DNA of 64,000 nucleotides from Candidatus Aquidulcis sp. (GCA_020723345.1 DYJA01000002.1:137544-201543); one strand, 5' to 3'; positions 8,667 through 53,980 are shown, counted from the first letter of the stretch. The notes: a model not told the origin generated them from the sequence alone. Made by a program: numbers and translations.

Positions 8667-8669
8667 TTT

Positions 8670-32232: not shown

Positions 32233-32261
32233 GACAATAGAAGGAAATTGAATAACAAAAA

Positions 32262-32468
32262 CCGCGGGGGAGAATTCCAAGTTGGCTCAAAAAAAACTTG
32301 GATACCGAAGGGGCAAGCCAGATAGTTGCCAAACCGTTTGGCGAATCTCTCAGGTCACGGGACCCCGCAGAAATTTTCTCTGGAAAGTTGGACCCGCTGT
32401 AGCGTCCAACGCCGATGGGGCAAGCCGCGCGGATTTACGGCGAATCTCTCAGGCGATCCAACAGAGAA
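32262..32468 (+). promoter_or_regulatory. Tandem glycine riboswitch (two aptamers)
   Basis: Aptamer 1: GGGGGAGAA...ACCGAAGGGGCAA...AATCTCTCAGGtcacGGGACcccgc. Aptamer 2: CTCTGGAaAG...GCCGAtGGGGCAA...AATCTCTCAGGCgatccaACAGAG. Both match the class consensus cores and sit upstream of the glycine-cleavage genes. Confidence 0.9.
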
Positions 32469-32597: not shown

Positions 32598-32972
32598 GTG
32601 ATGCCGACGATGATTCCGACTTTTCTACTCAAGAAATTGTACGTCCAAGGCAGTTTCAAAAACACCGAACGCGGATTTCAACTCGCGCTGCGTAACACGC
32701 TTGCGCCCGGCACGCTCATCGGCGTCGGCGCGATTCAACTGGATGGACGCGATATTCCGCGCGACCAAATCGTGATCCAGGTTGACGAGGGCGCGCCGGT
32801 GCGCGCGAGCGATATTTCGTTCGACGCGCCGCGCCTGTTTCCGCTCAACGCGACGGTGACGTTTCGCGTCGACGATCAGCCGCTCGCGCCCGGCGCGCAT
32901 CGCGTCAACATTTCCGTGAACACGAAAGAAGCGGGTGAATTGAAAATCGACGCGGAGGATTCAATCGAATGA
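32598..32972 (+). CDS. Hypothetical 124-aa protein, first gene of the glycine-regulated operon
   Basis: GGGAGG RBS, GTG 32598 / ATG 32601. 4-nt overlap with the next gene. No family recognised. Confidence 0.6.
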   Translation: MMPTMIPTFLLKKLYVQGSFKNTERGFQLALRNTLAPGTLIGVGAIQLDGRDIPRDQIVIQVDEGAPVRASDISFDAPRLFPLNATVTFRVDDQPLAPGAHRVNISVNTKEAGELKIDAEDSIE

Positions 32973-35900: not shown

Positions 35901-36229
35901 TGATTCGTTTTCGGATGAATCAAAAAGGCGTGCGCCGTCCCAACACCGGCAACCCGGTCGTGAACAAACAAGGCCAGGTGATCGGCTACGTCACCAGTTG
36001 CTCGCTCGATAGCGAGGGCTATTTACTCGGGCTGGCGATTGTCGAGATGGCGTACACGACGGAAGGCACGCCCATCGCGATCTTTGTGGTACCGGAAAGA
36101 CCCGTCGCAGAAAAACCGAAACCCGAATTGGCGGTAGGTGATAAAACCTTGTTGCCGGTTGATGCGACGGTGATACGACGATTCCCGTTGAAAAAGCCGG
36201 TGGCAATGCCGGTGGAGACACACGATTAG
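32969..36229 (+). CDS. Fusion: divergent serine hydroxymethyltransferase-like domain, partial GcvT-like domain, and full aminomethyltransferase (GcvT) domain
   Basis: N-terminal part: LIMIPSESSAP, NVQPLSGSPANL, HLTHGS, VFTTHKTLDGPRGAV (PLP Lys). C-terminal part: KRTVLYETHKAMGAKIVPFAGWEMPVWY, AAGLFDVSHMGCLQVAGENA, VARTGYTGEDGFEIF-like VARTGYTGEDVGFEIF. Confidence 0.85.
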   Translation: MNDDFLFRGDVAELDPYLARLIDCEAERQARKLIMIPSESSAPLAVRQALGSVFQNIYAEGYPPTRATCECEELLSDDAHQLAYYRRYSDRRFYKGVDYADIVESLAGRRVAECFATDVAPADAIHANVQPLSGSPANLGIYDAFMREGDTLMGLDLFQGGHLTHGSEFNISGKRYRVVSYGVDPATERLNYDQINDLALKHKPRVIVAGYTSYSWAPDWKKFRATADAVGALLVADIAHTAGLAIAGMYPNPVGIADITVFTTHKTLDGPRGAVILTTDADKAAKIDAAIFPGAQGGPHVNTFAAMAVAFKLARTEQFKQLQIRTVENARALSDAFQARGLRVAYGGTDTHIVVLNVSAIETGKARTGFPLRGEVAARILDLAGIVVNKNTIPGDTKTALASGIRFGTPWISQRGLRPADMATIADIVHDTLANIHPFAYFGLAGELPRGKIDLDVLTAAQTRVAALADKAGIDFDLPRQGAPARSDSVVLEIKGFRARAFLQEIATNNLATLAQGKAVRTFLLDGAGKLIADVAITRRESDEHGRDCFWMSVNRDDAARIVSWLHGLSDGYILFDDADVFRKVQGPVTISEVCDADLSRFKPTGAAVAQSGAAGATLLQKYPDHFDLTKSYFVGESSVISSGARNDGMTRSSNKVEWKWREPTDAPLKRTVLYETHKAMGAKIVPFAGWEMPVWYTSVSDEHAAVRHAAGLFDVSHMGCLQVAGENAIAFLDAVISNYAHWLDDGQSCYGYLLDPDGKVIDDFMIYRRRADKFLVVVNASNADKDWDWLTAVNAQRVVIDRKRPWLQVAAPALLRNLKDASAGADQLRDIALQGPASIAILQACANDAATKDQIARVRRTDLIEIKLMDIPVVVARTGYTGEDVGFEIFVHPDRQIALWKMLLEKGKPFGIKPCGLGARDSTRTEAGLPLYGHELAGHFDINPIEAGFQGYVKYHKPFFIGRDALMARDQNRTRALIRFRMNQKGVRRPNTGNPVVNKQGQVIGYVTSCSLDSEGYLLGLAIVEMAYTTEGTPIAIFVVPERPVAEKPKPELAVGDKTLLPVDATVIRRFPLKKPVAMPVETHD
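34883..34915. repeat. Short palindromic element in frame inside the SHMT-GcvT gene
   Basis: tccgtcatttc-gagcggagcga-gaaatgacgga (perfect 11-bp stem), encoding SVISSGARNDG. Confidence 0.7.
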
Positions 36230-37390: not shown

Positions 37391-38662
37391 GTGTACGCCA
37401 CGTCTCAAGAATTAGAACTATCGGCGATCTACGCGAGCGATCCGGAAATCGCGGCGGTGATCGAGCGCGAACGCACGCGACAAAAAGAAGGATTGGAACT
37501 GATCGCTTCCGAAAACTACGCGAGCCGCGCGGTGTTGGAAGCAGTCGGTTCGGTGCTGACGAACAAGTACGCCGAAGGTTATCCGGCGAAACGCTATTAC
37601 AACGGCTGCGGCTTCGTTGATCAAGCCGAAACGCTCGCGATTGAACGCGCCAAGCAACTGTTCGGCGCGCCGCACGCGAACGTACAGCCGCATTCCGGAT
37701 CGCAAGCGAATATGGGCGCGTACTTTGCGCTGATTCAGCCCGGCGACACCGTGCTCGCGATGAGTCTCGCGCAGGGCGGACATCTCACGCACGGCGCGCC
37801 GGTGAACTTGTCGGGACAACTTTACAACTTTGTCGGCTACGGTGTGAACAGGGAAACCGAGATGCTCGACTATGCCGAGATCGCGCGGCTCGCCGAACAA
37901 CATCGTCCGAAACTGATCGTCGCGGGCGCGACCGCGTATCCGCGCGTAATTGATTTTGCAAAACTGCGCGAGATTGCAAATCACGTCGGCGCGAAATTGA
38001 TGGCGGACATCGCGCACATCGCTGGACTGGTTGCCGCCGGAGTTCATTCCAGCCCGGTGCCGGTCGCCGATGTTGTGACAACGACCACGCACAAAACGTT
38101 GCGCGGTCCGCGCGGCGGCATGATTCTCTGCACTGTGGAATACGCCAAGGCAATCGACAAAGCAATCTTCCCAGGAATGCAAGGCGGTCCGCTCGAACAT
38201 GTGATCGCCGGGAAAGCGGTCGCGTTACGAGAAGCGCAGCAACCGTCGTTCGTCGCGTATCAAAAGCAAGTACGCGCGAACGCGCGCGCGTTGGGCGCGC
38301 AACTGCAAGCGCGCGGCTTGCGGATCGTCTCCGGCGGGACGGACAACCATTTGATCCTGGTAGACTTGACATCCAAGGGCGTGACTGGCAAAGACGCGGC
38401 GAACGCGCTGGAGAGCGTCGGGATCACGTGCAACAAGAATCTGGTGCCGTTCGATCCACTTCCGCCGAAAGTGACGAGCGGCATTCGACTGGGCACGCCG
38501 GCGTTAACGACGCGCGGCATGAACGAAAACGATTTGTGCCAGGTCGCCGATTGGATCGCCGATGTGGTTTCCGATTTGAGTGACACGGCGCGGCACGAAC
38601 GCGTGCGAAAAGCAGTTGTTCAATTCGCCACGCGCTTTCCGATGCCGGGAGTAGATTCATAG
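37391..38662 (+). CDS. glyA: Serine hydroxymethyltransferase (canonical)
   Basis: [44 protein letters not shown] start. Confidence 0.95.
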
Positions 38663-38743: not shown

Positions 38744-40105
38744 ATGACCCATCGTTTCATTCCCAACACCGATGCCGATCGCGCTGCAATGCTACAGACG
38801 ATCGGCGTTGCGTCGGCGAAAGACTTGTTCGCGGACGTGCCGCAGGACGCGCTCTATCCAAAAATCAAACTGCCGAGCGCGTTATCCGAACTTGACTTGA
38901 TGCGCGAACTGCAAACGATGTCGGCGCGCAACGCGAACGTCAACGAACGCGCGTGTTTTCTCGGCGCGGGCGCGTACAACCATTTCATTCCCGCGACGAT
39001 TCCGCATCTCGTTTTCCGCAGCGAGTTTTACACCGCGTACACGCCGTACCAAGCCGAAATCAGCCAGGGCACGCTGCAAACGATTTTCGAGTACCAGTCG
39101 ATGATCTGCGCGCTGACCGGCATGGACGCGGCGAATGCGTCGCACTATGATGGCGCGACGGCGGCGGCGGAAGCCGCGATCCTCGCGATCAATCAATTGC
39201 CCGGACGAAACAAGATTCTCGTGTGTCCGACTTTGCACCCGGAATATCGCGCGACGATTCGCACGTACCTCGCCGGGCACGATATTGAAATTGTCGGCGA
39301 CGAAGACACAAGCGCGACGTTCGAGCAAATGGTGGACAAACATCTCGACGATCGGACCGCGTGCGTGATCGTCGCAAATCCCGACTTTTTGGGACGCGTG
39401 CGCGACTTGAAGCCGTACGCGGATCGCGTGCACGCGGCAGGCGCGCTTTTCGTCGTCAGCGCGTACCCGATTTCGCTTGGCTTGTACCAAGCGCCGGGAA
39501 ATTATGGCGCGGATGTCGTCGTCGGCGAAGGACAATCGCTTGGCAATCCAATCGCGTTCGGTGGACCGTACCTGGGAATTTTCGCGACGAAAGAAAAATT
39601 CTTGCGGCGCATGGCGGGACGCTTGGTCGGACAAGCGACGGACACGAAGGGGCGGCGCGGTTTCACGCTGACGTTGCAGGCGCGCGAGCAGCACATCCGC
39701 CGCGAAAAAGCGACGTCGAATATTTGCACGAATCAGGCGCTATGCGCGCTCGCTGCGTGCGTGTATCTTTCGACGCTCGGCAAGTCGGGCTTGCGCCAAG
39801 TCGCCGAGTTGTGCTATCACAAAGCGCACTACGCCGCGAACAAGATCAATCGGCTCGTTGGCTATCGCGTGAATATGAAGCAAGAATTCTTCAACGAGTT
39901 TGTCGTCGAGTGCCCGCGCCCGGTCGCGGAGATCAACGCGGCGTTGCGCGAGCGAGGAATTATTGGCGGATACGATCTATCGAAAGATTATCCGCATCTT
40001 GGGAATGCGATGTTGGTTGCGGTAACAGAGATGAACACGCGAGAACAAATTGACGCGTTTGCAAAAGCGTTGGGAGAAGAGATAAGAAGGCGGAAGAAGG
40101 GATAA
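38744..40105 (+). CDS. gcvPA: Glycine dehydrogenase (decarboxylating) subunit 1
   Basis: 453 aa. FLGAGAYNH, YTPYQAEISQGTLQ, SHYDGATA. The final codons RRRKKG-stop lie inside the following repeat. Confidence 0.95.
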   Translation: MTHRFIPNTDADRAAMLQTIGVASAKDLFADVPQDALYPKIKLPSALSELDLMRELQTMSARNANVNERACFLGAGAYNHFIPATIPHLVFRSEFYTAYTPYQAEISQGTLQTIFEYQSMICALTGMDAANASHYDGATAAAEAAILAINQLPGRNKILVCPTLHPEYRATIRTYLAGHDIEIVGDEDTSATFEQMVDKHLDDRTACVIVANPDFLGRVRDLKPYADRVHAAGALFVVSAYPISLGLYQAPGNYGADVVVGEGQSLGNPIAFGGPYLGIFATKEKFLRRMAGRLVGQATDTKGRRGFTLTLQAREQHIRREKATSNICTNQALCALAACVYLSTLGKSGLRQVAELCYHKAHYAANKINRLVGYRVNMKQEFFNEFVVECPRPVAEINAALRERGIIGGYDLSKDYPHLGNAMLVAVTEMNTREQIDAFAKALGEEIRRRKKG

Positions 40106-40200
40106 GAAGACATAGAAGGGATAGAAGGCAGAAGAAGGCGTAGAAGGCGAAAGAAGGCGCGCTGACCTCTTGCCCTCTTCGCCCTCTTAGCCCTTCTGAG
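40081..40200. repeat. Long imperfect palindrome of gataagaagg/gcagaaggc units
   Basis: gataagaaggcggaagaagggataagaagacatagaagggatagaaggcagaagaaggcgtagaaggcgaaagaaggcg ... cctcttgccctcttcgccctcttagcccttctg. Same family as 14884 and 58596. Confidence 0.8.
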
Positions 40201-41685: not shown

Positions 41686-41722
41686 AGCGCCGCGATGATT
41701 TCTCATCGCGGCGCTGGTTTTC
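41686..41722. terminator. Rho-independent terminator between convergent genes
   Basis: agcgccgcgatga-tttc-tcatcgcggcgct followed by ggttttc. Confidence 0.7.
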
Positions 41723-41786: not shown

Positions 41787-44000
41787 CTATCTCGTGGCGC
41801 AACGGAATCCCACGGTGGAGAGCTTGAGTTCTGGTGTACCCCAAGCGCGGTATGCACTGCGCGTGAGCAGCTTGCTAGCCTGCCACGATCCACCACGTAG
41901 AACACGACTGTCACCCGACGAAGGCCCTGTTGGGTTACTCTTTGGAGAAACAGGATAATAGTCGATGCTATACCTATCTGCGACCCATTCAAACACATTC
42001 CCAGCCATATCCATTACGCCATACGGGCTTACTCCGGTTGAGAAACTTCCCACAGCCGTAGTGTCTCCTGGTCCATTTTCGATAAAGTTCAGTTTGCTTG
42101 GATCAAAAGCATCCCCCCATGGATAGATTCTGCCATCAGATCCACGAGCAGCCTTCTCCCACTCAGCTTCGGTCGGCAAGCGTTTACCGGCCCACTCGCA
42201 AAATGACCTCGCATCGTTCCACGATACCCAGATTACCGGATAATCATCAAACTGAGTATTCCCATAATAAGAATTCCGTGTGTTCGATCTACTTAGCCAA
42301 GGGATGGAACACTTGCCACTGTCCACGCATTTCCTGTACTGCACATTTGTCACCAAGAACTTTTCTATCCAATATGCGTCTAGGTACGGTGTGTGTGGAG
42401 GCTTCTCGTTATCCCAACCGTCATTGCTTCCCATCGTAAATTCTCCGGCAGGGACGAACATCATTGGCGCATTGCCAATCACACGCTCTTCGCCAGATCT
42501 TGGCGTAGGTGGAGGCAATTCTCGAGCTGCTATAGTTCCAATTGCTTGAGCCGTTGCAAGCAAATTCAGCGTAGGAGTACCGGGTAATGGTGGACTAAAT
42601 GTTAGTCGATTTTCGGGAGAGGGCTGTGGTTTGGGAGTCGGATTTTGAGCCACCGATGTCTGATAGGCAGCACTCCATTCCACGGCATCCTGTGCCAGTC
42701 TCGTTGATTTTGCACTCACATCAAGTGCATAAATCACAAGCGCCATCACGATGAAAAAAAGTACCAAACCAGCGACAAGCCCAATTCTGGCTAACCTTCT
42801 CGAACGTGCAAAGCGCCATTCCTCATTGGATATCTGAATTGAATGGATAAATCGATCGTGTGTAAGCTCATACCAACGCGCACCCGCGCGCAATTCCGCT
42901 CGGATGAGGTGTTGGTTTTCCAATACATCCACGGCAGCATTGGGAATTCCTTCGGTTCGTTCTTTGCCACGGAACACTGTTCCACGGGTATCCGCCGGTG
43001 TAACAAGATGCCGTTCGAACCAATTGCGCAAGTCTCTCTCACCAACTCGCGTTTCTTTTGCCGTCGTTTTAACTGCACGTTCGTAAAAACCCTTCAGTGC
43101 TTCACCTACATTGCCGAAAGCTTTGAGGTGATCAATTGTAATAATCTTTGTATCCGGCGGCAGATCAATCCAGAGGTTCTGACAGATGACTTGCAATTGT
43201 ACTGGTTCGACAAACTCACCCGTCGCTTCTATTATCTCACCCCGCGCACTCTCTACTTTGATCTTTAGCAATTCCTGTACCAATTCATGGGCAACCCCTG
43301 ATGCAAACGAGCGTCCTACGCTTATTACTGGCCGTTCGACAGCTAACGTTGCTGGCTCGGCACGCAACAACTCTAGACGAAAACGGTTACGCAATTGGTC
43401 AGGCATAGCGCGGGCATATGGATCCAAGCTAGCCAGACAATCCTCACGCATTACGAACAGTACGCGCAACAATGGATCCGCCTCGAGTGCCCCAGCTACC
43501 TGATGAAAGAACCCTTCTCTTTCCCTCCAGCGCTCTGGATAGAAAGCAAATAGTTCCTCAAACTGATCAAAGATGATGACGCGCGGCAAAGGTAGCCCTT
43601 GCCGATCCGTTGGATGAGCGCGCTCTCTTAGAAAAGCTGAAATGGATAAGGAACCTAGCAAGATTGACTCCGGTCTATCCTCCAGCCAACTCATCAAAGT
43701 ATTGACGACATAGATATTCATTGTCTCGCGGACATCTGATCCTTCGCGAACGAGTCCGCGCATACGCGCCACTGGCAAGACCTCGAACCCTTCAGCTCGG
43801 AGTGCAGGAATAAGGCCGGCATTCAACAACGACGTTTTACCTGCGCCTGATTGAGCGTAGATAAGCACAACCCGATGGGCCGTGACGAGAGAGGCCAGCT
43901 CTAATATCTCGCGATCACGCCCGAAGAACAAATTCTGCTCGTTTGATTCGAATGGACGCGGACCAGGGTAGGGGATGCGGAAATTGGGTTCAGCGCTCAT
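41787..44000 (-). CDS. STAND-like P-loop NTPase, single TM helix, Pro-rich linker and FGE-sulfatase (SUMF1-fold) domain lacking the catalytic cysteines
   Basis: YPGPRPFESNEQNLFFGRDRE, Walker A YAQSGAGKTSLLNAGLIPAL, Walker B RVIIFDQFEELF, FVMREDCLASLD. TM IGLVAGLVLFFIVMALVIYAL preceded by RFARSRRLAR. C-terminal WVSWNDARSFCEWAGKRLPTEAEWEKAARG, GNVFEWVADRY, RVLRGGSWQASKLLTRSAYRAW, GFRCA. Confidence 0.85.
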   Translation of the reverse strand: MSAEPNFRIPYPGPRPFESNEQNLFFGRDREILELASLVTAHRVVLIYAQSGAGKTSLLNAGLIPALRAEGFEVLPVARMRGLVREGSDVRETMNIYVVNTLMSWLEDRPESILLGSLSISAFLRERAHPTDRQGLPLPRVIIFDQFEELFAFYPERWREREGFFHQVAGALEADPLLRVLFVMREDCLASLDPYARAMPDQLRNRFRLELLRAEPATLAVERPVISVGRSFASGVAHELVQELLKIKVESARGEIIEATGEFVEPVQLQVICQNLWIDLPPDTKIITIDHLKAFGNVGEALKGFYERAVKTTAKETRVGERDLRNWFERHLVTPADTRGTVFRGKERTEGIPNAAVDVLENQHLIRAELRAGARWYELTHDRFIHSIQISNEEWRFARSRRLARIGLVAGLVLFFIVMALVIYALDVSAKSTRLAQDAVEWSAAYQTSVAQNPTPKPQPSPENRLTFSPPLPGTPTLNLLATAQAIGTIAARELPPPTPRSGEERVIGNAPMMFVPAGEFTMGSNDGWDNEKPPHTPYLDAYWIEKFLVTNVQYRKCVDSGKCSIPWLSRSNTRNSYYGNTQFDDYPVIWVSWNDARSFCEWAGKRLPTEAEWEKAARGSDGRIYPWGDAFDPSKLNFIENGPGDTTAVGSFSTGVSPYGVMDMAGNVFEWVADRYSIDYYPVSPKSNPTGPSSGDSRVLRGGSWQASKLLTRSAYRAWGTPELKLSTVGFRCATR

Positions 44001-44878
44001 TTCCCAAGCCCTTCCCAGCGGTCAAACAACTCGGCGGTGAATTCCTTCGCAGTACCCCAATACACGCGGACATTAATCCCCCCAAAGTAATCCGTCAAGT
44101 ATTTCTGTGCGCTTTTCCCTTCTGCCACACTACTGGGCGGTAACTGAACGGCAACACTGATTCGGCGCAAGCTCGATTCCATTGATGTAACCAGACCACG
44201 GAACAGGACTCGAAAATCCCAATCAGCCAAACGATATCCGATGAAAAGCAATGAAGCTCCAGTAAGTGCCTCCTGGATGCGTGGGGGAAGTAAGTTGTGA
44301 TCCTTGGAAATACTTACTAGAAAATCGAGATAGTCATCCTCGGTGAGAACGAGAGATTCAGGAACCTCGTTGTGTCCATGCAGGTGGTAGACAACAGGAT
44401 TGGCGGGAGTAGGACGAAAACCAACGACGGAGTCGAAAACAGATGGACGACCTCTAAGGAAACTATTCCAACAACATAGCTCACGGCGAGGGTCTCTGTG
44501 CTGACTAACAAGTGCCCGAACCATAAAGTCATCGTAATTGGTTGTCATGTAGATCGGAAGCGGGAGCTTGGCAAGTATTGTATGTGGCTCGTCAGACGCA
44601 GCGAAATCAGGTAACCCGATATTCTTAAATGACCCAAGGAGTTGTTCCTTCGGGAACATTGAATCGTGGGTAGAGACAGCAAGAAACTGAGCGACACGTG
44701 CGAGATCGGAAGAATCTTCAAGGGGGTACTTGTATTGCCTGGCCCATTTTTGAGCAATCTCTGAACCAAGAGGAAGAACACCATAGGCAACACCAGCTCC
44801 CAGGAAGGGAGTGCATTTACCTTGTTGAATTCTTGCCAGCAGAATTTGCCAATCCTGTTCGCTCAAGGTTTCGGCCAT
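43997..44878 (-). CDS. SIR2-like (SIR2_2-type) protein, candidate NAD-consuming effector
   Basis: CTPFLGAGVAYG, IYMTTNYDDFMVRAL, VVYHLHGH, LVLTEDDYLDFL, SLLFIGYRLADWDFRVLFRGL. GGAGG RBS. ATGA overlap with the downstream NTPase gene. Confidence 0.85.
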   Translation of the reverse strand: MAETLSEQDWQILLARIQQGKCTPFLGAGVAYGVLPLGSEIAQKWARQYKYPLEDSSDLARVAQFLAVSTHDSMFPKEQLLGSFKNIGLPDFAASDEPHTILAKLPLPIYMTTNYDDFMVRALVSQHRDPRRELCCWNSFLRGRPSVFDSVVGFRPTPANPVVYHLHGHNEVPESLVLTEDDYLDFLVSISKDHNLLPPRIQEALTGASLLFIGYRLADWDFRVLFRGLVTSMESSLRRISVAVQLPPSSVAEGKSAQKYLTDYFGGINVRVYWGTAKEFTAELFDRWEGLGK

Positions 44879-45130
44879 CCGAATCCTCCCCGGGTTCTAG
44901 CCCTACAGAACGAGCACCTACCGCCAACGCGCGCTAGCGCGTCAAACGACAGGTGCTTTGACCTTCCGTAAAGGACTTTCGGTTTCAGGTAACAACGTCC
45001 CACGAGCAATCATCTCTTCGCCCCTCCTCCAGAGCGAATTGAGATTATTCCAATGCAGGGACAAATACGAAATCTACCGAACCAATTATACCATGAATGT
45101 CAAGAAAAATCGCGCGTTTGATGATTGCGA

Positions 45131-45424
45131 TCAGACGGCAAGCGGGGAAGCCACAATTTCGGGTCGCCACTCGACTTGTTGAATCGTGCGAACGCGTTTT
45201 TGCATTTTGACGTACACCACGGGGCTATCGGCGGGGCGGGGCGCGGCGTTAGCCATTGCGATGTTGGCGCGATTGAATTCAGGGTCGTCAGCATCCAGAA
45301 AAATCAGCATCGCCTTGTCGGGGATATGATCCAGAATCTCTGGCGCGGCGAACACATATTGATTGAATTGTTCGGTTAACTCAAAAGTCTTATCGGCGAT
45401 TTGTTGCGGCGTCAATTTTTCCAT
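45131..45424 (-). CDS. Small conserved hypothetical protein (97 aa; possibly DUF5647-like)
   Basis: MEKLTPQQIADKTFELTEQFNQYVFAAPEILDHIPDKAMLIFLDADDPEFN. Family assignment is from memory only. Confidence 0.55.
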   Translation of the reverse strand: MEKLTPQQIADKTFELTEQFNQYVFAAPEILDHIPDKAMLIFLDADDPEFNRANIAMANAAPRPADSPVVYVKMQKRVRTIQQVEWRPEIVASPLAV

Positions 45425-48378: not shown

Positions 48379-48488
48379 CGCAAGAAACGCAAGGGACACA
48401 GATGAACGCAGATGAACACAGATCAAACTAGAAATCATTGTTCTTGTTTTCTTCGTGTTCATCGCGCCTTTCGTGGACAGAGTTCTTA

Positions 48489-49157: not shown

Positions 49158-51917
49158 GTGAATGATTCCCCAAATCCGCACGTCCCAGATTGTCCCTACG
49201 TCGGCTTGCAACCATACTCCGAAGCCGAACGCGAATACTTTTTCGGTCGCGAGCAAGACACCGAAACGATTGCCGCGAACTTGCTCACCGCGCCGCTGAC
49301 GTTGCTTTACGGCGCGAGCGGCGTCGGCAAAACGTCCGTGCTTGCGGCAGGCGTTGTGCCGTACTTGCGCGCGATGCCTGATGTACTTGTTGTTTTGTTT
49401 CGGCAGTGGCAGGACAGCACGTTTCAAGATGTGCTGATGAACGACGTTGATACAACGGTCTACTACTCAAGAGCCAAACTGCTGAGTAATAGGACACCGC
49501 TTCCGTTCGACGAATTCCTCGCGCGCGCGGCGCAAGAAACCAACCGCACGCTCCTCATCATCCTTGATCAGTTTGAAGAGTATTTTCTCTATCACCCTAA
49601 CGGAAATCCGTTCGAGGAGCAACTCGCGCGTGCGATCAATAGGGGCGACGTGAACGCAAATTTCATTCTCTCCATGCGCGAGGACGCGCTCTCACAACTC
49701 GACCGCTTTGAAACACGGATTCCCAACTTGATGAGCAACTATTTGCGCTTGGAGCATTTGGACCGCGCTGGTGCAGGGCGCGCGATTCGCAAGCCGCTGG
49801 ATGTGTACAACGCGCGCCGAACTGACGCGTCCCCGATAACGATCGAAGACGCGCTGGTGGATGCGTTGATTGAGCAAGTTCGCACGGGACGCGTGACGCT
49901 GGGGCGCGCAGGGCAAGGCGAAATTGCCGTAATGCAATCCGCCGACACGCGCGATACGCGCATTGAGGCGCCCTTTCTGCAAATGGTCTTGACTCGTCTC
50001 TGGGAGGAAGAAACTCGTGCCGGCGCGCGCAACCTTAGACTTGCAACCTTGAACCTCCTTGGTGGCGCTGAAAAAATCGTGCGAACGCATCTGGACGAAG
50101 TAATGAACAGATTGCGCGCGCCGGAGCAAGAAGTTTGCTCCACCTTCTTCGACCGATTGGTCACGCCGTCGGGCACCAAGATCGCGCAGAACGCCGACGA
50201 CCTGGTGACGTATGCTGCGCGTTCCGCTGCTCAAGTCACTCCCATTCTCAAGAAACTTGCCGACGCGCGCGTCCTGCGTCCGATTGCGCCGCCGCTGAAT
50301 CAGCCCCAGGTCGCGCGCTATGAGATTTTTCACGATGTGATTGCGCCTGCGATTCTGGATTGGCGCAGACGTTTCGTTGATCGCAAGCGCGTTCGTCGCT
50401 TGGGATTGATTACGCTGGGGGCTGTTTTGCTCGTGGTGGTGTTCAGTTTGTTGTCGCTCTTTGCGTTCCAGCAAATGTTGAATGCGCAGGATGCCGAGGG
50501 GCGCGCGATTGTTCAACGCAACGCAGCGGCTACTTCGGAAGCGCGTGCGGTAACGCAGGAAGCGAGCGCATACCAGCAACGCGCCGAAGCGCAGAATCAG
50601 GCAAACGCGCGGGCTACGGCGGAAGCGCAGGCATTGGTTCAACGTGATGCGGCAGAGAAATCCAAGGGTGAAGCGCTCACTCAACAAAAGATCGCCTTTT
50701 CGCGTGAATTGGCGGGGATAGCGCTCGCGCGATTGCCTGTTGACCCAGAACAAAGTCTGCTCTTGGCTCTCCATGCCGCCGAGATTTCTCCGACTGAACA
50801 GGCAGAGGACGCCTTGCGCCAATCATTGCGCGGGTATGCTTTGCGTGCTGCATTGCGCGGGCACACTGCTAGTGTGTATGCTGGATTCAGCCCGGACGGC
50901 AAATTCATCGTCACGGCAAGTCTAGACAATACGGCGCGTGTGTGGGAGACGAGCACAGGCAAGAGTATCGTTGAACTGCGTGGGCACACCGGTCAGGTGC
51001 GAAGCGCCCAATTTAGTCCCGACGGCAAATTCATTGTCACGGCGAGTCAAGATGGAACCGCGCGGGTTTGGGAGGCGAGTACCGGTAAAAGTATCGCCGA
51101 ACTGCGTGGACATACTGCGACCGTGCGCCATGCCGTGTTCAGCCCGGATGGCAAGTTCGTCGTCACAGGAAGCAATGACTACACAGCGCGCATTTGGGAA
51201 GCCAGCACAGGCAAGAACATCCGGGAACTGCGTTGGCACGGGAGTTCTTTGAGCGGCGTGGCATACAGTCCCGACGGCAAATCTATTGTTACGGTGAGCT
51301 CAGGCGCGGGCGCGCGGATTTGGGAAGCGAGTACAGGCAGAGGTATCTCGGAACTACGCGGGCACACGAAATCCATAAATAGCGTCGCGTTTAGTCCCGA
51401 CGGCAAATTTATTGTCACCGCGAGTTCGGACAATACGGCGCGCGTGTGGGAAACAAGCACAGGCAGGAATATTGCGGAATTGCAGGGGCACACGGATGTC
51501 GTACGAAGCGCGACATTCAGTCCTGATGGCATGTTCGTCGTCACTGGCAGTTCGGATAACACAGCGCACGTGTGGGAGGCAAGCACAGGCAAGAGTATTA
51601 TGGAATTGCGCGGACATACGGGGTACGTGACTATTGCCGCATTTAGTCCGGATGGCAAGTTCATCGTGACAGTCAGTAGAGATGGAACCGCGCGGGTGTG
51701 GGAGGCAAGCACAGGGAGAGGCATCGCGGAACTACGCGGACACACCACTGAAATCAATAGTGTTGAATTCAGTCCCGATAGTAAATTCATTCTCACCGGG
51801 AGCGCTGATTTTACCGCGCGGCTATGGGAGGCGAATAGCCGCGACAGTATTATAGTATTCCTTCGCAGAAACTATCACGACCGCGAAGATTCTTGGGACA
51901 CAGATGAACACAGATAA
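49158..51917 (+). CDS. STAND-like P-loop NTPase, single TM helix, Ala/Gln-rich coiled coil and 8 WD40 repeats
   Basis: CPYVGLQPYSEAEREYFFGREQD, Walker A YGASGVGKTSVLAAGVVPYL, Walker B LLIILDQFEEYF, ILSMREDALSQLD. RRRFVDRKRVRR then TM LGLITLGAVLLVVVFSLLSLFAF. Eight LRGHT...FSPDGK...TARVWE units. The ORF terminates inside a hairpin repeat. Confidence 0.85.
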   Translation: MNDSPNPHVPDCPYVGLQPYSEAEREYFFGREQDTETIAANLLTAPLTLLYGASGVGKTSVLAAGVVPYLRAMPDVLVVLFRQWQDSTFQDVLMNDVDTTVYYSRAKLLSNRTPLPFDEFLARAAQETNRTLLIILDQFEEYFLYHPNGNPFEEQLARAINRGDVNANFILSMREDALSQLDRFETRIPNLMSNYLRLEHLDRAGAGRAIRKPLDVYNARRTDASPITIEDALVDALIEQVRTGRVTLGRAGQGEIAVMQSADTRDTRIEAPFLQMVLTRLWEEETRAGARNLRLATLNLLGGAEKIVRTHLDEVMNRLRAPEQEVCSTFFDRLVTPSGTKIAQNADDLVTYAARSAAQVTPILKKLADARVLRPIAPPLNQPQVARYEIFHDVIAPAILDWRRRFVDRKRVRRLGLITLGAVLLVVVFSLLSLFAFQQMLNAQDAEGRAIVQRNAAATSEARAVTQEASAYQQRAEAQNQANARATAEAQALVQRDAAEKSKGEALTQQKIAFSRELAGIALARLPVDPEQSLLLALHAAEISPTEQAEDALRQSLRGYALRAALRGHTASVYAGFSPDGKFIVTASLDNTARVWETSTGKSIVELRGHTGQVRSAQFSPDGKFIVTASQDGTARVWEASTGKSIAELRGHTATVRHAVFSPDGKFVVTGSNDYTARIWEASTGKNIRELRWHGSSLSGVAYSPDGKSIVTVSSGAGARIWEASTGRGISELRGHTKSINSVAFSPDGKFIVTASSDNTARVWETSTGRNIAELQGHTDVVRSATFSPDGMFVVTGSSDNTAHVWEASTGKSIMELRGHTGYVTIAAFSPDGKFIVTVSRDGTARVWEASTGRGIAELRGHTTEINSVEFSPDSKFILTGSADFTARLWEANSRDSIIVFLRRNYHDREDSWDTDEHR

Positions 51918-52850
51918 ACACAGATAGAAAAATCAGTGTTCATCAGTGTTTATCAGTGTCCAAAAGATTTGGTTGCGGCTATGCTGCGCTATGGATCTGC
52001 GCGGACATACAAGTAAGATCCGGAGCATCGTGTTCAGCCCAGATGGAAAATCTCTCGTGACCGCAAGCGAGGACAACACCGCCCGAGTATGGGAAGCAAG
52101 CACAGGCGCGAGTATCCTTGTATTGAGTGGGCATAAGGGTTTCTTGCGGAGTGTTGCCTACAGTCCCGAGGGCAAGTTCATCGTCACCGCGAGTGGAGAT
52201 TCGATAGCGCGGGTGTGGGAGGCGAGTACAGGTAAGAGTATCCTGGAACTGCGCGGACACACAAAAGATGTTCGCAGCGCCGCGTATAGCCCCGATGGCA
52301 AGTTCATCGTCACCGCAAGCATAGATGGGAGTGCGCGCGTGTGGGAGGCAGGCACAGGTAAGGGAATCATGGAATTGCGGGGGCACGGTATCCATAGCGT
52401 CCTCAACGCCGCGTTCAGTCCGGATGGCAAGCGCATCGTCACGGCGGGCTGGGATGGCATCGCGAAGGTGTGGGAGACAAGTACAGGCAAGAGCACAATC
52501 GAATTGCGCGGACATACACTAGGTTTATACAGCGCCACATTCAGTCCGGATGGCAAGTTGATTGTTACTACCAGTGTGGACGGAACTGTACGGATATGGG
52601 AAGCCAGCACAGGCAAGAGCGTCATCGAATTGCACGCGCACGCAGGTGATTCGCACAGCGCCGCATTCAGTCCTGATGGGAAATATGTCGTCACTGTAGG
52701 TTTGGACGGAAACGCGAGGGTATGGGAGACTAGCACCGGCAAACACATCGTCGAAATATCTGAGGCGACTGCCATATTCAGCGCCGTCTTCCATCCCGAA
52801 GGCAAGTTAATCGCGACTGCAAGTAGCGATGGCGTTGCGCGCATTTACGT
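50853..52850 (+). repeat. Tandem 126-bp (42-codon) WD40 coding repeats, 15-16 units across two ORFs
   Basis: Units LRGHTxxVxSxxFSPDGKFIVTASxDxTARVWEASTGKSIxE are highly similar at the DNA level. Differences cluster just after GHT and around S-x-D-x-T. Confidence 0.85.
51896..51961. repeat. Hairpin of cacagat units interrupting the WD40 array
   Basis: ggacacagatgaacacagataaacacagatag-aaaaa-tcagtgttcatcagtgtttatcagtgtcc. Near-identical core to 57152-57218. Confidence 0.85.
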
Positions 52851-53028
52851 CTGTGAGGTGTGTGCTCCATTCCAAGACCTTATCGCGCTTGCACGCACGC
52901 GCATCACGCGCGAGTTCATGTGCGAAGAGCGGCAAAGGTATTTGCACGAAAATATTGTCTGCTCAACGCCAACGCCAATCCTAACTCAAACTCCAGAGCC
53001 CCCGCAGACAATAACGCCTGGTAGGTGA
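51946..53028 (+). CDS. WD40-repeat protein (7 repeats), probably the detached C-terminal part of the preceding gene
   Basis: The first ATG lies inside the hairpin. The recognisable sequence starts DLRGHTSKIRSIVFSPDGK. No signal peptide or TM. An alternative start is ATG 51991. Confidence 0.7.
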   Translation: MFISVQKIWLRLCCAMDLRGHTSKIRSIVFSPDGKSLVTASEDNTARVWEASTGASILVLSGHKGFLRSVAYSPEGKFIVTASGDSIARVWEASTGKSILELRGHTKDVRSAAYSPDGKFIVTASIDGSARVWEAGTGKGIMELRGHGIHSVLNAAFSPDGKRIVTAGWDGIAKVWETSTGKSTIELRGHTLGLYSATFSPDGKLIVTTSVDGTVRIWEASTGKSVIELHAHAGDSHSAAFSPDGKYVVTVGLDGNARVWETSTGKHIVEISEATAIFSAVFHPEGKLIATASSDGVARIYVCEVCAPFQDLIALARTRITREFMCEERQRYLHENIVCSTPTPILTQTPEPPQTITPGR

Positions 53029-53032
53029 TCTT

Positions 53033-53980
53033 ATGCCCGAACCACCTTATGGTATCATTGTCAACCAATTGAAACAAGGGAACGTCATTCCCTTCCTCGG
53101 CGCGGGCGCGTCGTTGAGCGGACGTCCGGTGGACGCGAAATGGAACGACAAGACCGCCGCGTTTCTTCCAACCGGCAGAGAACTCGCGCACCAACTCGCC
53201 GAGGATTCCAGTTTGCCGTCCACAGAATCGTACGACCGCGATGATCTCTCCAAAGTTTCGTCGTACTACGCCGAAGTCGCCGCAAACCGCGCCGACTTGA
53301 TCGGCTGTCTGCATCAAACGCTTGACCGCGATTATCAGATCGGCGCGATCCACCGTTTTCTCGCAGACGCCGACGTGCCGCTTCTCATCGTCACGACGAA
53401 TTACGATGATCTGATCGAGCGCGCGTTTCAGGCAAAGGGTAAACCGTACCATCTCGTCGCGTATCCCACCGATCACAAAGAACTCGCGGCAGCGGTATTG
53501 TGGTGGAAGCCCGGCGCAGCCGACCCCGAAGCGCACGCGCCCAAATCGCTTCCGCTCTCGCTCAGCGATACGACCATCATCTACAAGATGCACGGCACGG
53601 TGGATCGGCAAGCGAACAAGTGGGATTCGTACGTCATCACCGAAGAAGACTATGTGGACTTTCTCGCGCGGATGACGGGGCAGACCGCGATCCCCGCGCG
53701 CTTGATGCTCGAATTTCGCAAGCGGCGTTTTCTCTTTCTCGGCTACGGTCTGCGCGATTGGAACCTGCGCGTGATGCTGCGTCACCTCAAAAGCGCACTC
53801 GCCACAACCGAAACGACCGCGCCGCTAACCGATGCGGGCGAGGATTTGCGCTCGTGGGCGATCCAGCGCAATCCATCGGAGTTGGAACGCGCGCTGTGGC
53901 TTGCGCGCAAGGTGAACATTTACGATCTGGAGATTGACGCGTTCGTCGGCAAGTTGCGCGAGAAGATGGGCATTGCGTAG
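53033..53980 (+). CDS. SIR2-like (SIR2_2-type) protein, paralogue of 43997-44878
   Basis: VIPFLGAGASLSG, LLIVTTNYDDLIERAF, IIYKMHGT, YVITEEDYVDFL, RFLFLGYGLRDWNLRVMLRHL. Starts 4 nt after the WD40 stop. Confidence 0.85.
   Translation: MPEPPYGIIVNQLKQGNVIPFLGAGASLSGRPVDAKWNDKTAAFLPTGRELAHQLAEDSSLPSTESYDRDDLSKVSSYYAEVAANRADLIGCLHQTLDRDYQIGAIHRFLADADVPLLIVTTNYDDLIERAFQAKGKPYHLVAYPTDHKELAAAVLWWKPGAADPEAHAPKSLPLSLSDTTIIYKMHGTVDRQANKWDSYVITEEDYVDFLARMTGQTAIPARLMLEFRKRRFLFLGYGLRDWNLRVMLRHLKSALATTETTAPLTDAGEDLRSWAIQRNPSELERALWLARKVNIYDLEIDAFVGKLREKMGIA

What the first reader, a model, noticed from the sequence alone, without database searches (positions are those of the whole stretch)
41787..44878. 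Candidate novel two-gene conflict/defence module, copy 1: SIR2-like protein plus membrane-anchored STAND-like NTPase with an outward-facing, cysteine-less FGE-sulfatase domain
Seen in sequence. Two minus-strand genes are translationally coupled by an ATGA overlap at 43997-44000. The first (293 aa) carries the SIR2_2-type motif set: PFLGAG glycine loop, TTNYDD with the catalytic-type Asn, HLHGH with the catalytic-type His, TEDDYLDFL and FIGYRLADWDFR. The second (737 aa) starts directly with a STAND-like P-loop NTPase (FFGRDRE, Walker A GAGKTS, Walker B IIFDQFEELF, MREDCLASLD) and has no fused effector domain. It then has one TM helix with five basic residues on its N-terminal flank, which by the positive-inside rule predicts N-in/C-out. 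A Pro-rich linker and an FGE-sulfatase fold follow. In that fold, the segment after RGGSW reads QASKLLTRSAYRAW, where bona fide formylglycine-generating enzymes carry their two catalytic cysteines, so it looks like a binding module rather than an enzyme. Established knowledge. SIR2-family NADases are effectors in Thoeris, DSR1/DSR2, SIR2-HerA and short-pAgo systems, and STAND NTPases act as sensor switches in Avs/NLR-like systems. Inference. The NTPase would be the sensor or switch and the SIR2-like protein an NAD-depleting effector supplied in trans. What is unusual is that the sensing domain is predicted to be extracytoplasmic. I do not recognise this architecture as a named defence system. 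The locus is visibly AT-richer than its neighbours (glycine-cleavage operon on one side, plsC on the other), which suggests horizontal acquisition.
Basis: partly seen in the sequence, partly recalled or inferred. Interest (0 to 1): 0.9.

Follow-up and report, generated by a model that had tools for sequence, protein, structure and literature searches.

The report
SIR2 enzyme paired with membrane-spanning STAND sensor
A real and widely conserved two-gene bacterial module pairs a defence-type NAD-cleaving SIR2 enzyme with a membrane-spanning NLR-like ATPase whose variable sensor domain most likely faces outside the cell, which suggests, so far without experiments, immune-type signalling from outside to inside.

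Summary
Genes 43997-44878(-) and 41787-44000(-) overlap by ATGA. They encode a SIR2_2 protein and an nSTAND1 NTPase with one TM helix and a cysteine-less FGE-sulfatase domain. GC is 0.49-0.51, against 0.57-0.61 in the flanks.

The pair is not a chance adjacency. In 32 of 32 species-level genome loci from more than 10 phyla, an nSTAND1 gene starts right after the SIR2 gene; nine of these loci carry two SIR2 genes in tandem. A second subfamily, 25-29% identical and also present in this window at 49158-53980, keeps the same linkage. Single-chain nSTAND1-repeat-SIR2 fusions exist, and they lack the TM.

The TM is conserved. Its K/R bias is N-in in 69 of 74 homologues. The domains after it are swapped freely: WD40, TPR, FGE, lectin, CHASE2, PKD, collagen.

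The SIR2 protein is closest to ThsA, KomC and DSR2 NADases.

Best model: an outward-facing sensor drives NTPase oligomerisation, which activates the SIR2 NADase in trans.

nSTAND1+TM+FGS/beta-propeller architectures and STAND-FGS conflict systems are already catalogued (Kaur 2021). I found no description of the SIR2 partnership. No defence-island enrichment, DGR or phage carriage was found, and function is untested.

Verdict: new variant of a known kind.

The parts
43997..44878 (-). SIR2-like gene (293 aa), the predicted NADase effector. GxG loop at PFLGAG. Asn114, Asp116, His165 and His167 are invariant across 44 homologues.
   Evidence: Pfam SIR2_2 2e-24. PADLOC ThsA SIR2 models 4e-18. PDB phmmer hits to ThsA and KomC with aligned Asn and His. 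AF2 model plus Foldseek: ThsA, KomC and DSR2 are the top hits. Invariant columns.
43997..44000 (-). ATGA start/stop overlap, implying translational coupling of the SIR2 and NTPase genes.
   Evidence: Read directly from the sequence. Overlapping or abutting junctions recur in the homologous loci.
41787..44000 (-). nSTAND1-TM-FGE gene (737 aa), the predicted membrane-spanning sensor/switch.
42840..43973 (-). nSTAND1 STAND NTPase module (residues 10-387). Walker A GAGKTS (residues 52-57, nt 43830-43847), Walker B DQFEE (residues 145-149) and RED (residues 185-187) are all invariant or nearly so.
   Evidence: Pfam PF20703 4e-37. Invariant columns in 21- and 47-sequence alignments. No relative with a solved structure by profile search.
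42723..42779 (-). Single transmembrane helix LVAGLVLFFIVMALVIYAL (residues 408-426), with an Arg-rich N-flank (RFARSRRLAR).
   Evidence: Kyte-Doolittle 2.95. In homologues, K+R averages 4.96 on the N-flank and 1.85 on the C-flank, with N>C in 69 of 74. AF2 predicts a continuous helix at 363-450 with pLDDT 83-94 over the TM.
42468..42722 (-). Pro/Thr/Ser-rich, predicted disordered linker after the TM (residues 427-511).
   Evidence: Sequence. AF2 pLDDT below 50 for residues 453-484.
41796..42467 (-). Cysteine-less FGE-sulfatase (C-type-lectin-like) domain (residues 512-735), the predicted extracytoplasmic ligand-binding module.
   Evidence: Pfam 1e-58. Alignment to human FGE: C336 replaced by Ala, C341 deleted. 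AF2 pLDDT above 90. Its closest homologues are Cys-less and lie behind a signal peptide or TM.
45085..45103 (-). Candidate promoter upstream of the SIR2 gene: TTGACA followed by an extended -10 TGGTATAAT. The hexamer spacing is non-canonical. A GGAGG ribosome-binding site lies at 44885-44889.
   Evidence: Read from the sequence. The consensus scanner did not report it. Weak evidence.
41686..41715 (.). Palindromic 13-bp-stem terminator-like hairpin between the convergent gcvPB and nSTAND1 genes.
49158..53980 (+). Distant paralogous module ('copy 2'): nSTAND1-TM-coiled coil-WD40 (49158-51917), a WD40-only ORF (51946-53028) and a SIR2-like gene (53033-53980). It lies outside the finding's coordinates but belongs to the same theme.
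   Evidence: SIR2 is 25% and the NTPase 29% identical to copy 1. Its own family keeps the SIR2-nSTAND1 linkage.

Best explanation
This is a self-contained two-gene conflict-type module.

Gene 2 encodes a type-II (N-in/C-out) single-pass membrane protein. A cytoplasmic nSTAND1 STAND NTPase is joined, through one TM helix and a flexible Pro-rich linker, to an extracytoplasmic, catalytically dead FGE/C-type-lectin-like domain that serves as a ligand-binding sensor. Gene 1 is translationally coupled to it and encodes a free-standing defence-type SIR2 enzyme.

Proposed mechanism:
1. A ligand outside the cytoplasmic membrane binds the sensor. Candidates are a phage adsorption structure, a glycan, or another foreign or damage-derived surface molecule.
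2. Binding releases or clusters the receptor.
3. The nSTAND1 modules oligomerise in an NTP-dependent way on the inner face of the membrane.
4. The oligomer recruits or re-arranges the SIR2 partner into its active multimeric form.
5. SIR2 hydrolyses NAD+, causing growth arrest or death of the threatened cell.

Shown: the domain identities, intact catalytic motifs, the conserved TM with its charge bias, obligate and co-evolving gene linkage, the existence of fused forms, and sensor swapping.

Inferred: the topology, NADase activity, activation by oligomerisation, the nature of the trigger, and the immune role.
For: Linkage:
- An nSTAND1 gene starts 0-50 nt after the (last) SIR2 gene in 32/32 species-representative genome loci across Chloroflexota, Acidobacteriota, Planctomycetota, Verrucomicrobiota, KSB1, Desulfobacterota, Actinobacteriota, Bacteroidota, Caldiserica and Pseudomonadota.
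- The same arrangement appears in 6 metagenome contexts found from the SIR2 side and in 3 of 3 found from the NTPase side.
- A second subfamily, 25-29% identical, keeps the pairing in about 45 loci. SIR2 type 2 always sits next to NTPase type 2, which indicates co-evolution.
- Eight of ten long representatives are single polypeptides of the form nSTAND1-helical repeats-SIR2. Their SIR2 is 45-57% identical to this one.

Topology:
- These fusions have no TM, whereas forms with a C-terminal sensor do. That is what one expects if the helix really spans the membrane and SIR2 must stay in the cytoplasm.
- K/R bias is N>C in 69 of 74 homologues.
- The domains after the TM include typical surface or extracytoplasmic modules: CHASE2, PKD, collagen, InlB B-repeat and Laminin_G_3.
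- The nearest FGE homologues carry a signal peptide or TM in 67 of 74 cases and lack the catalytic Cys in 103 of 105.

Immune-receptor-like pattern:
- The SIR2 and NTPase modules are conserved at 50-80% identity, but the sensors are swapped. This FGE domain is 63% identical to stand-alone FGE proteins and only 39% identical to the FGE of a homologue whose NTPase is 59% identical.

Effector type:
- Sequence and fold are closest to the ThsA, KomC, DSR2, SPARSA and SIR2-HerA NADases. Canonical SIRT2 scores only E=0.15.
- The catalytic Asn and His are invariant.

Precedent:
- Avs5 is a fused SIR2-NOD-sensor whose NADase is switched on by filament assembly (PMC11897194).
Against: - There is no experiment on any member.
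- No defence-island signal was found. The 110 flanking genes from 27 species are mostly housekeeping, with only 2 TIR_2, 3 Pkinase and one PIN/Phd toxin-antitoxin pair nearby.
- No relatives were found in 2.9 M viral contigs.
- SIR2 and the NTPase are unusually well conserved for immune genes.
- Topology rests on hydropathy, charge bias and an AF2 helix, not on a dedicated predictor or on reporter fusions.
- 15 of 74 homologues have 2-4 hydrophobic segments, so some sensors may be cytoplasmic.
- Export of large WD40 propellers behind an internal signal-anchor is unproven.
- The SIR2 model has low confidence (pLDDT below 50) around residues 146-196, which includes the catalytic His.
- No complex prediction could be run.
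Confidence: 0.55

Rival explanations
1. Non-immune transmembrane signalling. The receptor senses a self or environmental extracytoplasmic cue, such as cell-wall state, a neighbour in a filament, or a nutrient or glycan. Through the NTPase it controls a SIR2 enzyme that regulates metabolism by protein deacylation or ADP-ribosylation, or by tuning NAD+. This would be analogous to PASTA or FGE-domain Ser/Thr kinase receptors.
For: The module sits among housekeeping genes with no defence-island enrichment. SIR2 is 55-80% and the NTPase 50-69% identical across phyla, which is stronger conservation than is typical for defence genes. No phage-borne copies were found. The sensor repertoire overlaps that of bacterial receptor kinases; JGI even labels many of the FGE homologues as 'serine/threonine kinase'.
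Against: The SIR2 is closest to abortive-infection NADases and not to deacetylase sirtuins. Sensors are exchanged among close relatives, and paralogous modules cluster within 5 kb in this window. Distribution is patchy and cross-phylum, and GC is lower here. nSTAND1 is otherwise found with caspase, TIR, trypsin and EAD effectors (PMC8195603).
Confidence: 0.2
2. The outward domain is an anchor, not the sensor. The C-terminal domain only tethers the complex to the envelope or cell wall, and the trigger is cytoplasmic or membrane-proximal, for example phage DNA entry or a phage protein sensed by the NTPase/helical region or by SIR2 itself. Alternatively, the hydrophobic helix does not span the membrane.
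For: Known bacterial STANDs (Avs, bNACHT) sense cytoplasmic phage proteins (background; PMC12803255). The TM-less fused forms use cytoplasmic helical repeats. Some homologues have little or nothing after the TM: lengths of 430-500 aa with only nSTAND1 annotated. Many database entries may be truncated, however.
Against: The post-TM domain is replaced by many unrelated ligand-binding folds, which is the pattern expected of a sensor rather than an anchor. The loop after RGGSW, equivalent to the variable ligand-binding region of DGR lectin-fold proteins, is hypervariable among close FGE homologues. The helix has Kyte-Doolittle 2.95 with no charged residue, and there is a strong positive-inside bias.
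Confidence: 0.13
3. An ordinary member of the already described DGR-linked STAND-FGS conflict systems (Kaur 2021; Dore 2024), with nothing new.
For: nSTAND1+FGS, and even nSTAND1+TM+FGS, are catalogued. The FGS domain was already proposed as a non-enzymatic invader sensor.
Against: There is no N-terminal effector or EAD on the NTPase. No repeat matching the FGE coding region (a DGR template/variable repeat pair) is found in the 64 kb, and no ORF with a YxDD reverse-transcriptase motif. A phrase search for a 'SIR2 nSTAND1' operon found none among 1181 nSTAND1 mentions in that paper's source data, and the accountable SIR2 mentions there do not include one. The published text treats the FGS sensors as intracellular.
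Confidence: 0.1
4. Chance adjacency of two unrelated genes.
For: None beyond the absence of experiments.
Against: 32/32 syntenic loci, a second co-evolving subfamily and natural gene fusions.
Confidence: 0.01

Closest known systems
STAND NTPase-FGS conflict systems, nSTAND1 clade (Kaur, Iyer, Burroughs, Aravind 2021, eLife, PMC8195603)
   Same: The same NTPase clade (PF20703) with a C-terminal FGE/C-type-lectin-fold domain proposed as a non-catalytic invader sensor. Their source data list nSTAND1+TM+FGS (4 mentions) and nSTAND1+TM+BetaPropeller (278 mentions).
   Different: Those systems carry the effector or an EAD adaptor fused to the NTPase N-terminus and are often DGR-linked. Their sensors are discussed as intracellular. 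Here the N-terminus is bare, the effector is a separate EAD-less SIR2, no DGR is seen in the window, and the sensor is predicted to be extracytoplasmic.
Avs5 / AVAST type 5 (SIR2-NOD-sensor; PMC11897194, PMC12931631)
   Same: A SIR2 NADase controlled by a STAND NTPase, with activation by higher-order assembly.
   Different: Avs5 is a single cytoplasmic polypeptide with SIR2 at the N-terminus. It belongs to a different NTPase clade: no PADLOC model, Avs models included, matched the NTPase. It has no TM and its sensor is cytoplasmic.
Thoeris ThsA, KomC (Kongming), DSR2
   Same: These are the closest sequence and fold relatives of the SIR2 protein, with the same catalytic Asn/His arrangement.
   Different: ThsA has a SLOG domain and is switched on by the ThsB-made signal gcADPR. 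KomC works with KomB and dITP. DSR2 carries its own sensor. None is paired with a STAND NTPase, and identity is only 15-20%.
SIR2-HerA (Nezha) and short pAgo SPARSA
   Same: A SIR2 NADase supplied in trans and activated within a complex with a P-loop ATPase (HerA) or a sensor (pAgo).
   Different: The partner here is a membrane-anchored STAND, not HerA or Argonaute. Fold matches are weaker (E 2e-3 to 0.3).
DGR-diversified STAND/CLec putative antigen sensors (Dore et al. 2024, PMC10907252)
   Same: nSTAND1 or NACHT combined with a C-type-lectin (FGE) domain. One NACHT target was predicted to place its lectin domain in the periplasm.
   Different: No DGR is present here, and no SIR2 partner is reported there.
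Eukaryotic transmembrane pattern-recognition receptors (e.g. TLRs) and bacterial PASTA/FGE receptor kinases: analogy only
   Same: The same logic: extracellular ligand-binding domain, single TM, cytoplasmic signalling module.
   Different: No homology of the signalling module. The output here is a STAND NTPase plus a SIR2 enzyme.

Membership tests
Defence-type SIR2 (Pfam SIR2_2) | Profile match above the curated cut-off | tested here: met
   86.6 bits against 24.5.
Defence-type SIR2 (Pfam SIR2_2) | GxG NAD-binding loop plus catalytic Asn and His aligned with the ThsA TTNYD and MHGD motifs | tested here: met
   HMMER alignments to ThsA 6lhx and 7uxt. N114, H167, G27 and G29 are invariant in 44 homologues.
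Defence-type SIR2 (Pfam SIR2_2) | Fold closer to antiphage NADases than to deacetylase sirtuins | tested here: met
   Foldseek: ThsA 2e-6, KomC 7e-6, DSR2 1e-4, SIRT2 0.15. The model is only of moderate quality (pLDDT 69).
Defence-type SIR2 (Pfam SIR2_2) | NAD+ hydrolase activity | not testable with these tools
   Needs biochemistry.
STAND NTPase, nSTAND1 clade | PF20703 match, with Walker A, Walker B and the downstream helical/winged-helix region | tested here: met
   129 bits against 27.1 over residues 10-387. GKT, DQFEE and RED are invariant.
STAND NTPase, nSTAND1 clade | Variable C-terminal sensor domain or repeats | tested here: met
   FGE here. Homologues carry WD40, TPR, lectin, CHASE2 and other domains.
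STAND-FGS conflict system (Kaur 2021) | STAND NTPase and FGS domain in one polypeptide | tested here: met
STAND-FGS conflict system (Kaur 2021) | Effector or EAD adaptor fused N-terminally to the NTPase, with matching EAD-effector genes | tested here: not met
   nSTAND1 starts at residue 10. The SIR2 protein is all SIR2 domain, with ThsA-model coverage over residues 14-234.
STAND-FGS conflict system (Kaur 2021) | Association with a diversity-generating retroelement (frequent, but not obligatory) | tested here: not met
   No repeat of the FGE coding region in the 64 kb. No YxDD ORF of 200 aa or more. The rest of the genome was not available.
Avs5 (AVAST type 5) | Single polypeptide SIR2-NOD-sensor matching Avs models | tested here: not met
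   Two separate genes. PADLOC gives 0 hits for the NTPase, and the SIR2 protein hits the ThsA, PDC-S25 and LmuA models only.
Thoeris | ThsA SIR2 fused to SLOG/Macro, plus an adjacent TIR protein ThsB | tested here: not met
   The 293-aa protein is the SIR2 domain only. The neighbours are the nSTAND1 gene and DUF5647.
SIR2-HerA | Adjacent HerA-type ATPase | tested here: not met
   The partner is nSTAND1, and there is no PADLOC HerA hit.
Formylglycine-generating enzyme (bona fide FGE) | Catalytic cysteine pair (human C336/C341) | tested here: not met
   C336 is replaced by Ala and C341 lies in a 3-residue deletion. The same loss is seen in 103 of 105 close homologues.
Single-pass N-in/C-out membrane protein | One hydrophobic helix of 19 residues or more, positive-inside bias, no N-terminal signal peptide | tested here: met
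   Kyte-Doolittle 2.95 at residues 408-426. Five Arg on the N-flank against one Lys and one Arg on the C-flank. N>C in 69 of 74 homologues. No dedicated predictor or experiment was available.

The most novel reading that the evidence does not exclude
A very large family of membrane-spanning NLR-like receptors that survey the outside of the cell: about 1,230 clusters at 50% identity, in more than 10 phyla, previously uncharacterised. Interchangeable surface-exposed sensors (lectin-fold, WD40, TPR, CHASE2 and others) would transmit ligand binding across the membrane to a STAND NTPase, which then switches on a separately encoded SIR2 NADase. This would be a bacterial counterpart of transmembrane pattern-recognition receptors. 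It could act before or at phage genome entry, or against extracellular competitors. The gene split would be explained by topology: TM-less relatives keep SIR2 fused at the C-terminus.
Probability: 0.35. Interest if true: 0.85.

Novelty: new variant of a known kind. Interest (0 to 1): 0.68.

Why it matters
All experimentally characterised bacterial STAND/NLR-type immune sensors detect ligands inside the cytoplasm. A conserved, abundant family that places the sensor outside the membrane and the NTPase and NADase inside would show that prokaryotes also use outside-in, receptor-type immune or danger signalling. It would also offer a natural set of swappable extracellular sensors on a constant signalling chassis.

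The module gives a clean experimental handle: two genes, clear catalytic residues and natural fused and unfused forms. It could address how a STAND NTPase activates an effector in trans, and how a signal crosses the membrane through a single helix. The nSTAND1 NTPase has no solved relative.

If the function turns out to be non-immune signalling, it would instead be a new type of bacterial transmembrane signalling pathway with a sirtuin output.

Tried and rejected
- PADLOC scan of the NTPase: no hit, so no named system.
- NCBIfam: only sub-threshold EgtB, GldK and SenA matches to the FGE domain, all far below their cut-offs. I rejected these as functional assignments.
- DGR hypothesis: a whole-window repeat search found no template/variable repeat pair for the FGE region, and no RT-like YxDD ORF.
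- Search of the Kaur 2021 supplements for a SIR2-nSTAND1 operon: none found. The SIR2 mentions that can be accounted for in file 1 are a distant neighbour, TM+SIR2+TPR+PIN proteins, or annotation text.
- Viral contig scan with the SIR2 family alignment: 44 pattern matches, none confirmed.
- Defence-island test on 110 flanking genes: the PADLOC hits are three generic Ser/Thr kinases (PD-T4-6 models). There is no conserved third gene.
- DUF5647, the upstream gene at 45131-45424: seen next to the module only in this organism and in none of the nine other annotated contexts, so it is not part of the module.
- Profile search of the PDB with the NTPase alignment: only designed TPR proteins matched, through homologues' C-termini. 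It is uninformative for the NTPase.
- Using locus L054 to test whether the copy-2 WD40 array is split: that ORF continues into a polysaccharide-synthesis-like sequence, so the comparison was uninformative.
- Organism identification: the exact-sequence look-up returned no name. A Chloroflexota origin is only inferred from the nearest homologues.
- Complex prediction (AlphaFold-Multimer) and DeepTMHMM were not available.

Full report
**Observation**

The junction reads ...GGGAAATGAGCGCT..., so the start codon of the second gene overlaps the stop codon of the first.

- Pfam assigns the first protein to SIR2_2 (2e-24, 86.6 bits against a cut-off of 24.5).
- Pfam assigns the second to nSTAND1 (PF20703, 4e-37, residues 10-387) plus FGE-sulfatase (1e-58, residues 512-735).
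- GC is 0.49 for the SIR2 gene and 0.505 for the NTPase gene. The adjacent glycine-cleavage, acyltransferase and lipid-kinase genes have 0.575-0.608.
- A palindromic terminator-like hairpin (41686-41715) separates the operon from the convergent gcvPB.
- A GGAGG ribosome-binding site, and about 200 nt further upstream an extended -10-like TGGTATAAT, precede the SIR2 gene.

**The SIR2 protein**

The whole 293-aa protein is a SIR2 domain.

- PADLOC's ThsA SIR2 models cover residues 14-234 (4e-18).
- phmmer against the PDB finds ThsA proteins (including one deposited as 'USG protein') and KomC. The TTNYD Asn and the H-G His line up with the ThsA motifs TTNYD and MHGD.
- In an alignment of 44 homologues, G27, G29, T112, T113, N114, Y115, D116, H165, H167 and G168 are invariant.
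- An AlphaFold2 model (pLDDT 69, pTM 0.72) has low confidence for residues 146-196.
- Foldseek against the PDB returns only antiphage NADases at the top: ThsA 2e-6, KomC 7e-6, DSR2 1e-4, then SPARSA and SIR2-HerA. Human FAM118B also matches. Canonical SIRT2 scores E=0.15.

It is therefore a defence-type SIR2 with an intact catalytic set. NADase activity remains an inference.

**The NTPase-TM-FGE protein**

- *NTPase.* Walker A (GAGKTS), Walker B (DQFEE) and the RED motif are invariant in 21- and 47-sequence alignments. The NTPase starts at residue 10, so no effector or adaptor is fused to its N-terminus. No solved structure is related to the NTPase by profile search.
- *TM helix.* One hydrophobic helix, LVAGLVLFFIVMALVIYAL (residues 408-426, Kyte-Doolittle 2.95), follows the NTPase. 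Five Arg precede it. One Lys, one Arg and two Asp follow it.
- *Structure model.* AlphaFold2 predicts a continuous helix at 363-450 with pLDDT 83-94 over the hydrophobic stretch, a disordered Pro-rich linker (453-484), and a confident FGE fold (pLDDT above 90).
- *FGE domain.* Against human FGE, Cys336 aligns with Ala and Cys341 falls in a three-residue deletion. The domain cannot be a formylglycine-generating enzyme.

**Is the pairing real?**

Yes, by four independent lines of evidence.

- *Synteny from the SIR2 side.* The SIR2 protein has more than 3,200 relatives, at 55-80% identity among the best 120. It forms about 1,230 clusters at 50% identity with E of 1e-30 or better. In 32 species-representative genomes from at least ten phyla, tblastn finds an nSTAND1 NTPase starting 0-50 nt after the last SIR2 gene in 32 of 32 loci. 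A few of these look frameshifted. Nine loci (Planctomycetota, Verrucomicrobiota, Acidobacteriota) carry two paralogous SIR2 genes in tandem before the NTPase. The annotated metagenome contexts show the same arrangement.
- *Synteny from the NTPase side.* Starting from NTPase homologues with TPR, with no recognised domain, or with Peptidase_S24 C-termini, a SIR2_2 gene lies immediately upstream in 3 of 3 cases.
- *A second subfamily.* The window contains a distant version at 49158-53980: nSTAND1-TM-coiled coil-WD40, a WD40 ORF, then a SIR2 gene. Its SIR2 is 25% and its NTPase 29% identical to copy 1. The relatives of that SIR2 in metagenomes sit next to the matching NTPase subtype in essentially every contig long enough to judge. 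The two components therefore co-evolve.
- *Natural fusions.* Eight of ten long representatives of the SIR2 family are single polypeptides of 900-1145 aa. They have nSTAND1 at the N-terminus, helical repeats in the middle and this SIR2 (45-57% identical) at the C-terminus.

**Topology**

The fusions act as a natural control. When the C-terminal domain is SIR2, which needs cytoplasmic NAD+, there is no TM between it and the NTPase. When the C-terminus is a binding domain, a TM helix follows the NTPase at about residue 405-440.

- Among 102 close NTPase homologues of 430 aa or more, 74 have such a helix. Of these, 59 have exactly one.
- The 15 residues before the helix carry 4.96 K+R on average, against 1.85 after it. 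The N-flank exceeds the C-flank in 69 of 74.
- The domains found after the TM include modules typical of surface or extracytoplasmic proteins: CHASE2, PKD, collagen repeats, InlB B-repeat and Laminin_G_3. WD40, TPR, PDZ, Peptidase_S24, DUF4870 and FGE also occur.
- The nearest relatives of this FGE domain are small Chloroflexi proteins. In 67 of 74 with complete N-termini the domain sits behind a signal peptide or TM. In 103 of 105 the catalytic Cys is absent. The loop after RGGSW differs in almost every sequence.

An N-in/C-out orientation with an outward-facing, non-catalytic lectin-fold sensor is therefore well supported computationally. It is not proven. Fifteen of the 74 homologues have 2-4 hydrophobic segments and may differ.

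**Modularity**

This FGE domain is 63% identical to stand-alone FGE proteins. It is only 39% identical to the FGE domain of another SIR2-linked nSTAND1 protein whose NTPase is 59% identical. NTPases 59-69% identical to this one carry WD40+PDZ, TPR or FGE domains. A constant signalling chassis with exchangeable sensors is the pattern seen in immune receptors.

**What argues for caution**

- The flanks of 27 species loci (110 genes) show no conserved third gene and no defence-island enrichment. The PADLOC hits are three generic Ser/Thr kinases. Pfam adds two TIR_2 and two S8 peptidases among otherwise housekeeping genes. One metagenome locus has a Phd/PIN pair next to the module, and another has a methyltransferase and a MazG-like gene nearby.
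- No relative was found in 2.9 million viral contigs.
- No repeat matching the FGE coding region (a DGR template/variable repeat pair) and no RT-like ORF is present in the window.
- The SIR2 and NTPase modules are more conserved than most defence genes.
- Nothing in this family has been tested experimentally, as far as the searchable literature shows.

**Mechanism proposed**

1. The extracytoplasmic sensor binds a ligand.
2. The cytoplasmic nSTAND1 modules oligomerise with NTP.
3. The translationally coupled SIR2 partner is assembled into an active multimer.
4. NAD+ is depleted.

Precedents exist for assembly-driven SIR2 activation. They include Avs5, whose SIR2 is fused to a NOD and switched on by filamentation (PMC11897194). 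ThsA and KomBC also have helical or filament structures in the PDB. In SIR2-HerA, an ATPase partner acts in trans. The gene split is plausibly a consequence of topology. Relatives keep SIR2 at the C-terminus, but once the C-terminus is exported the effector must be a separate chain. This last point is my inference.

**Comparison with what is known**

- Kaur et al. 2021 (PMC8195603) defined nSTAND1 and described STAND-FGS conflict systems. In those systems, effectors (TIR, DRHyd, caspase, trypsin, kinase) or EAD adaptors are fused to the N-terminus, DGRs are frequent, and the FGS domain is interpreted as an intracellular invader sensor.
- Their source data list nSTAND1+TM+BetaPropeller (278 mentions) and nSTAND1+TM+FGS (4 mentions). 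A phrase search found no SIR2-nSTAND1 operon. The seven SIR2 mentions in that file can be accounted for by one distant neighbour, TM+SIR2+TPR+PIN proteins and annotation text.
- Dore et al. 2024 (PMC10907252) predicted a periplasmic lectin domain for one NACHT DGR target.
- A 2025 preprint mentions 'transmembrane STAND ATPases' among the sensors of protease-Pepco modules.
- A 2026 preprint lists FGE and WD40 domains as STAND sensor classes.

The building blocks and even the TM architecture are thus on record. Three things are not, as far as I could find:

- the obligate, co-evolving SIR2 partner in trans, with its tandem-SIR2 and fused TM-less variants;
- the size and phyletic breadth of this family;
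- the explicit outside-in reading.

**Verdict**

This is a real, conserved two-gene module, and I rate it a new variant of a known kind.

Its claim of an unrecognised architecture is overstated.
- The defence role is inferred from homology and modularity, not from genomic context.
- Interest is moderately high. If the topology and the NADase output hold, this would be a large family of transmembrane NLR-like receptors, a concept not yet demonstrated in bacteria.

Noticed in passing
window 49158-53980 (+): A second, distantly related SIR2/nSTAND1 module lies only 4.3 kb from the first. It consists of nSTAND1-TM-coiled coil-WD40 (919 aa), a separate WD40-only ORF (360 aa) and a SIR2-like gene (315 aa), with the gene order reversed relative to copy 1. 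Its GC is close to the window mean (0.57-0.59). Its family keeps the SIR2-nSTAND1 linkage in about 45 metagenome loci.
   Followed up: partly
window 51894-51971, also 57151-57228 and 48392-48459: A palindromic intergenic repeat (GGGACACAGATGAACACAGATAAACACAGATAG...CAGTGTTTATCAGTGTCC, 94% identical between two copies) sits exactly between the 919-aa nSTAND1-WD40 ORF and the following WD40-only ORF. It supplies the stop codon of the first ORF. The WD40 array may have been split by insertion of this REP/MITE-like element.
   Followed up: partly
window 8515-8742 and 9000-11000: Two tRNA genes (8515-8586, 8670-8742) are followed by a low-GC stretch (0.48). It contains a 423-aa ORF (9369-10640) with a long coiled coil and a C-terminal T5orf172/GIY-YIG-like motif. 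This is a possible integrated island.
   Followed up: no
window 32257-32375 and 32969-36229 (+): A glycine riboswitch aptamer (Rfam, 59 bits) lies upstream of a 1086-aa ORF. The ORF looks like a fusion of serine hydroxymethyltransferase with a GcvT-like aminomethyltransferase. A separate SHMT (37391-38662) and gcvPA/gcvPB follow.
   Followed up: no
window 14215-14283, 16711-16778, 54450-54537; and 14874-14982, 40067-40194, 58682-58742: Two further families of short intergenic repeats occur in direct and inverted orientation: the ATTGGTCAATCGGTCAACC type and the AAGGGATAAGAAGG type. They are REP-like elements of unknown role.
   Followed up: no
window 45131-45424 (-): A DUF5647 gene lies 250 nt upstream of the SIR2 gene on the same strand. 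It accompanies the module only in this organism, so it is probably unrelated to it.
   Followed up: yes
proteins P0365, P0390, P0394, P0411, P0423, P0458, P0479, P0486: These are single-chain nSTAND1-helical repeat-SIR2 proteins (900-1145 aa) without a TM. The effector sits at the C-terminus rather than the usual N-terminus of STAND immune proteins.
   Followed up: partly
loci L031-L033, L035-L037, L039-L041: A tandem SIR2-SIR2-nSTAND1 variant occurs in Planctomycetota, Verrucomicrobiota and Acidobacteriota. The second SIR2 is a divergent paralogue (37-49% identical to the window SIR2), which suggests a heteromeric effector.
   Followed up: partly
locus L054:3534-6914: In the closest relative of the copy-2 module, the ORF holding the nSTAND1 NTPase continues into a sequence resembling a polysaccharide-biosynthesis epimerase/dehydratase instead of WD40 repeats. 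This is either another sensor/output swap or an artefact of my ORF calling.
   Followed up: no
locus L012:1991-2374: A 23S_rRNA_IVP family gene lies 4.6 kb upstream of a SIR2-nSTAND1-WD40 module. From memory, this is the family that includes the DGR accessory protein Avd. No DGR was looked for there.
   Followed up: no
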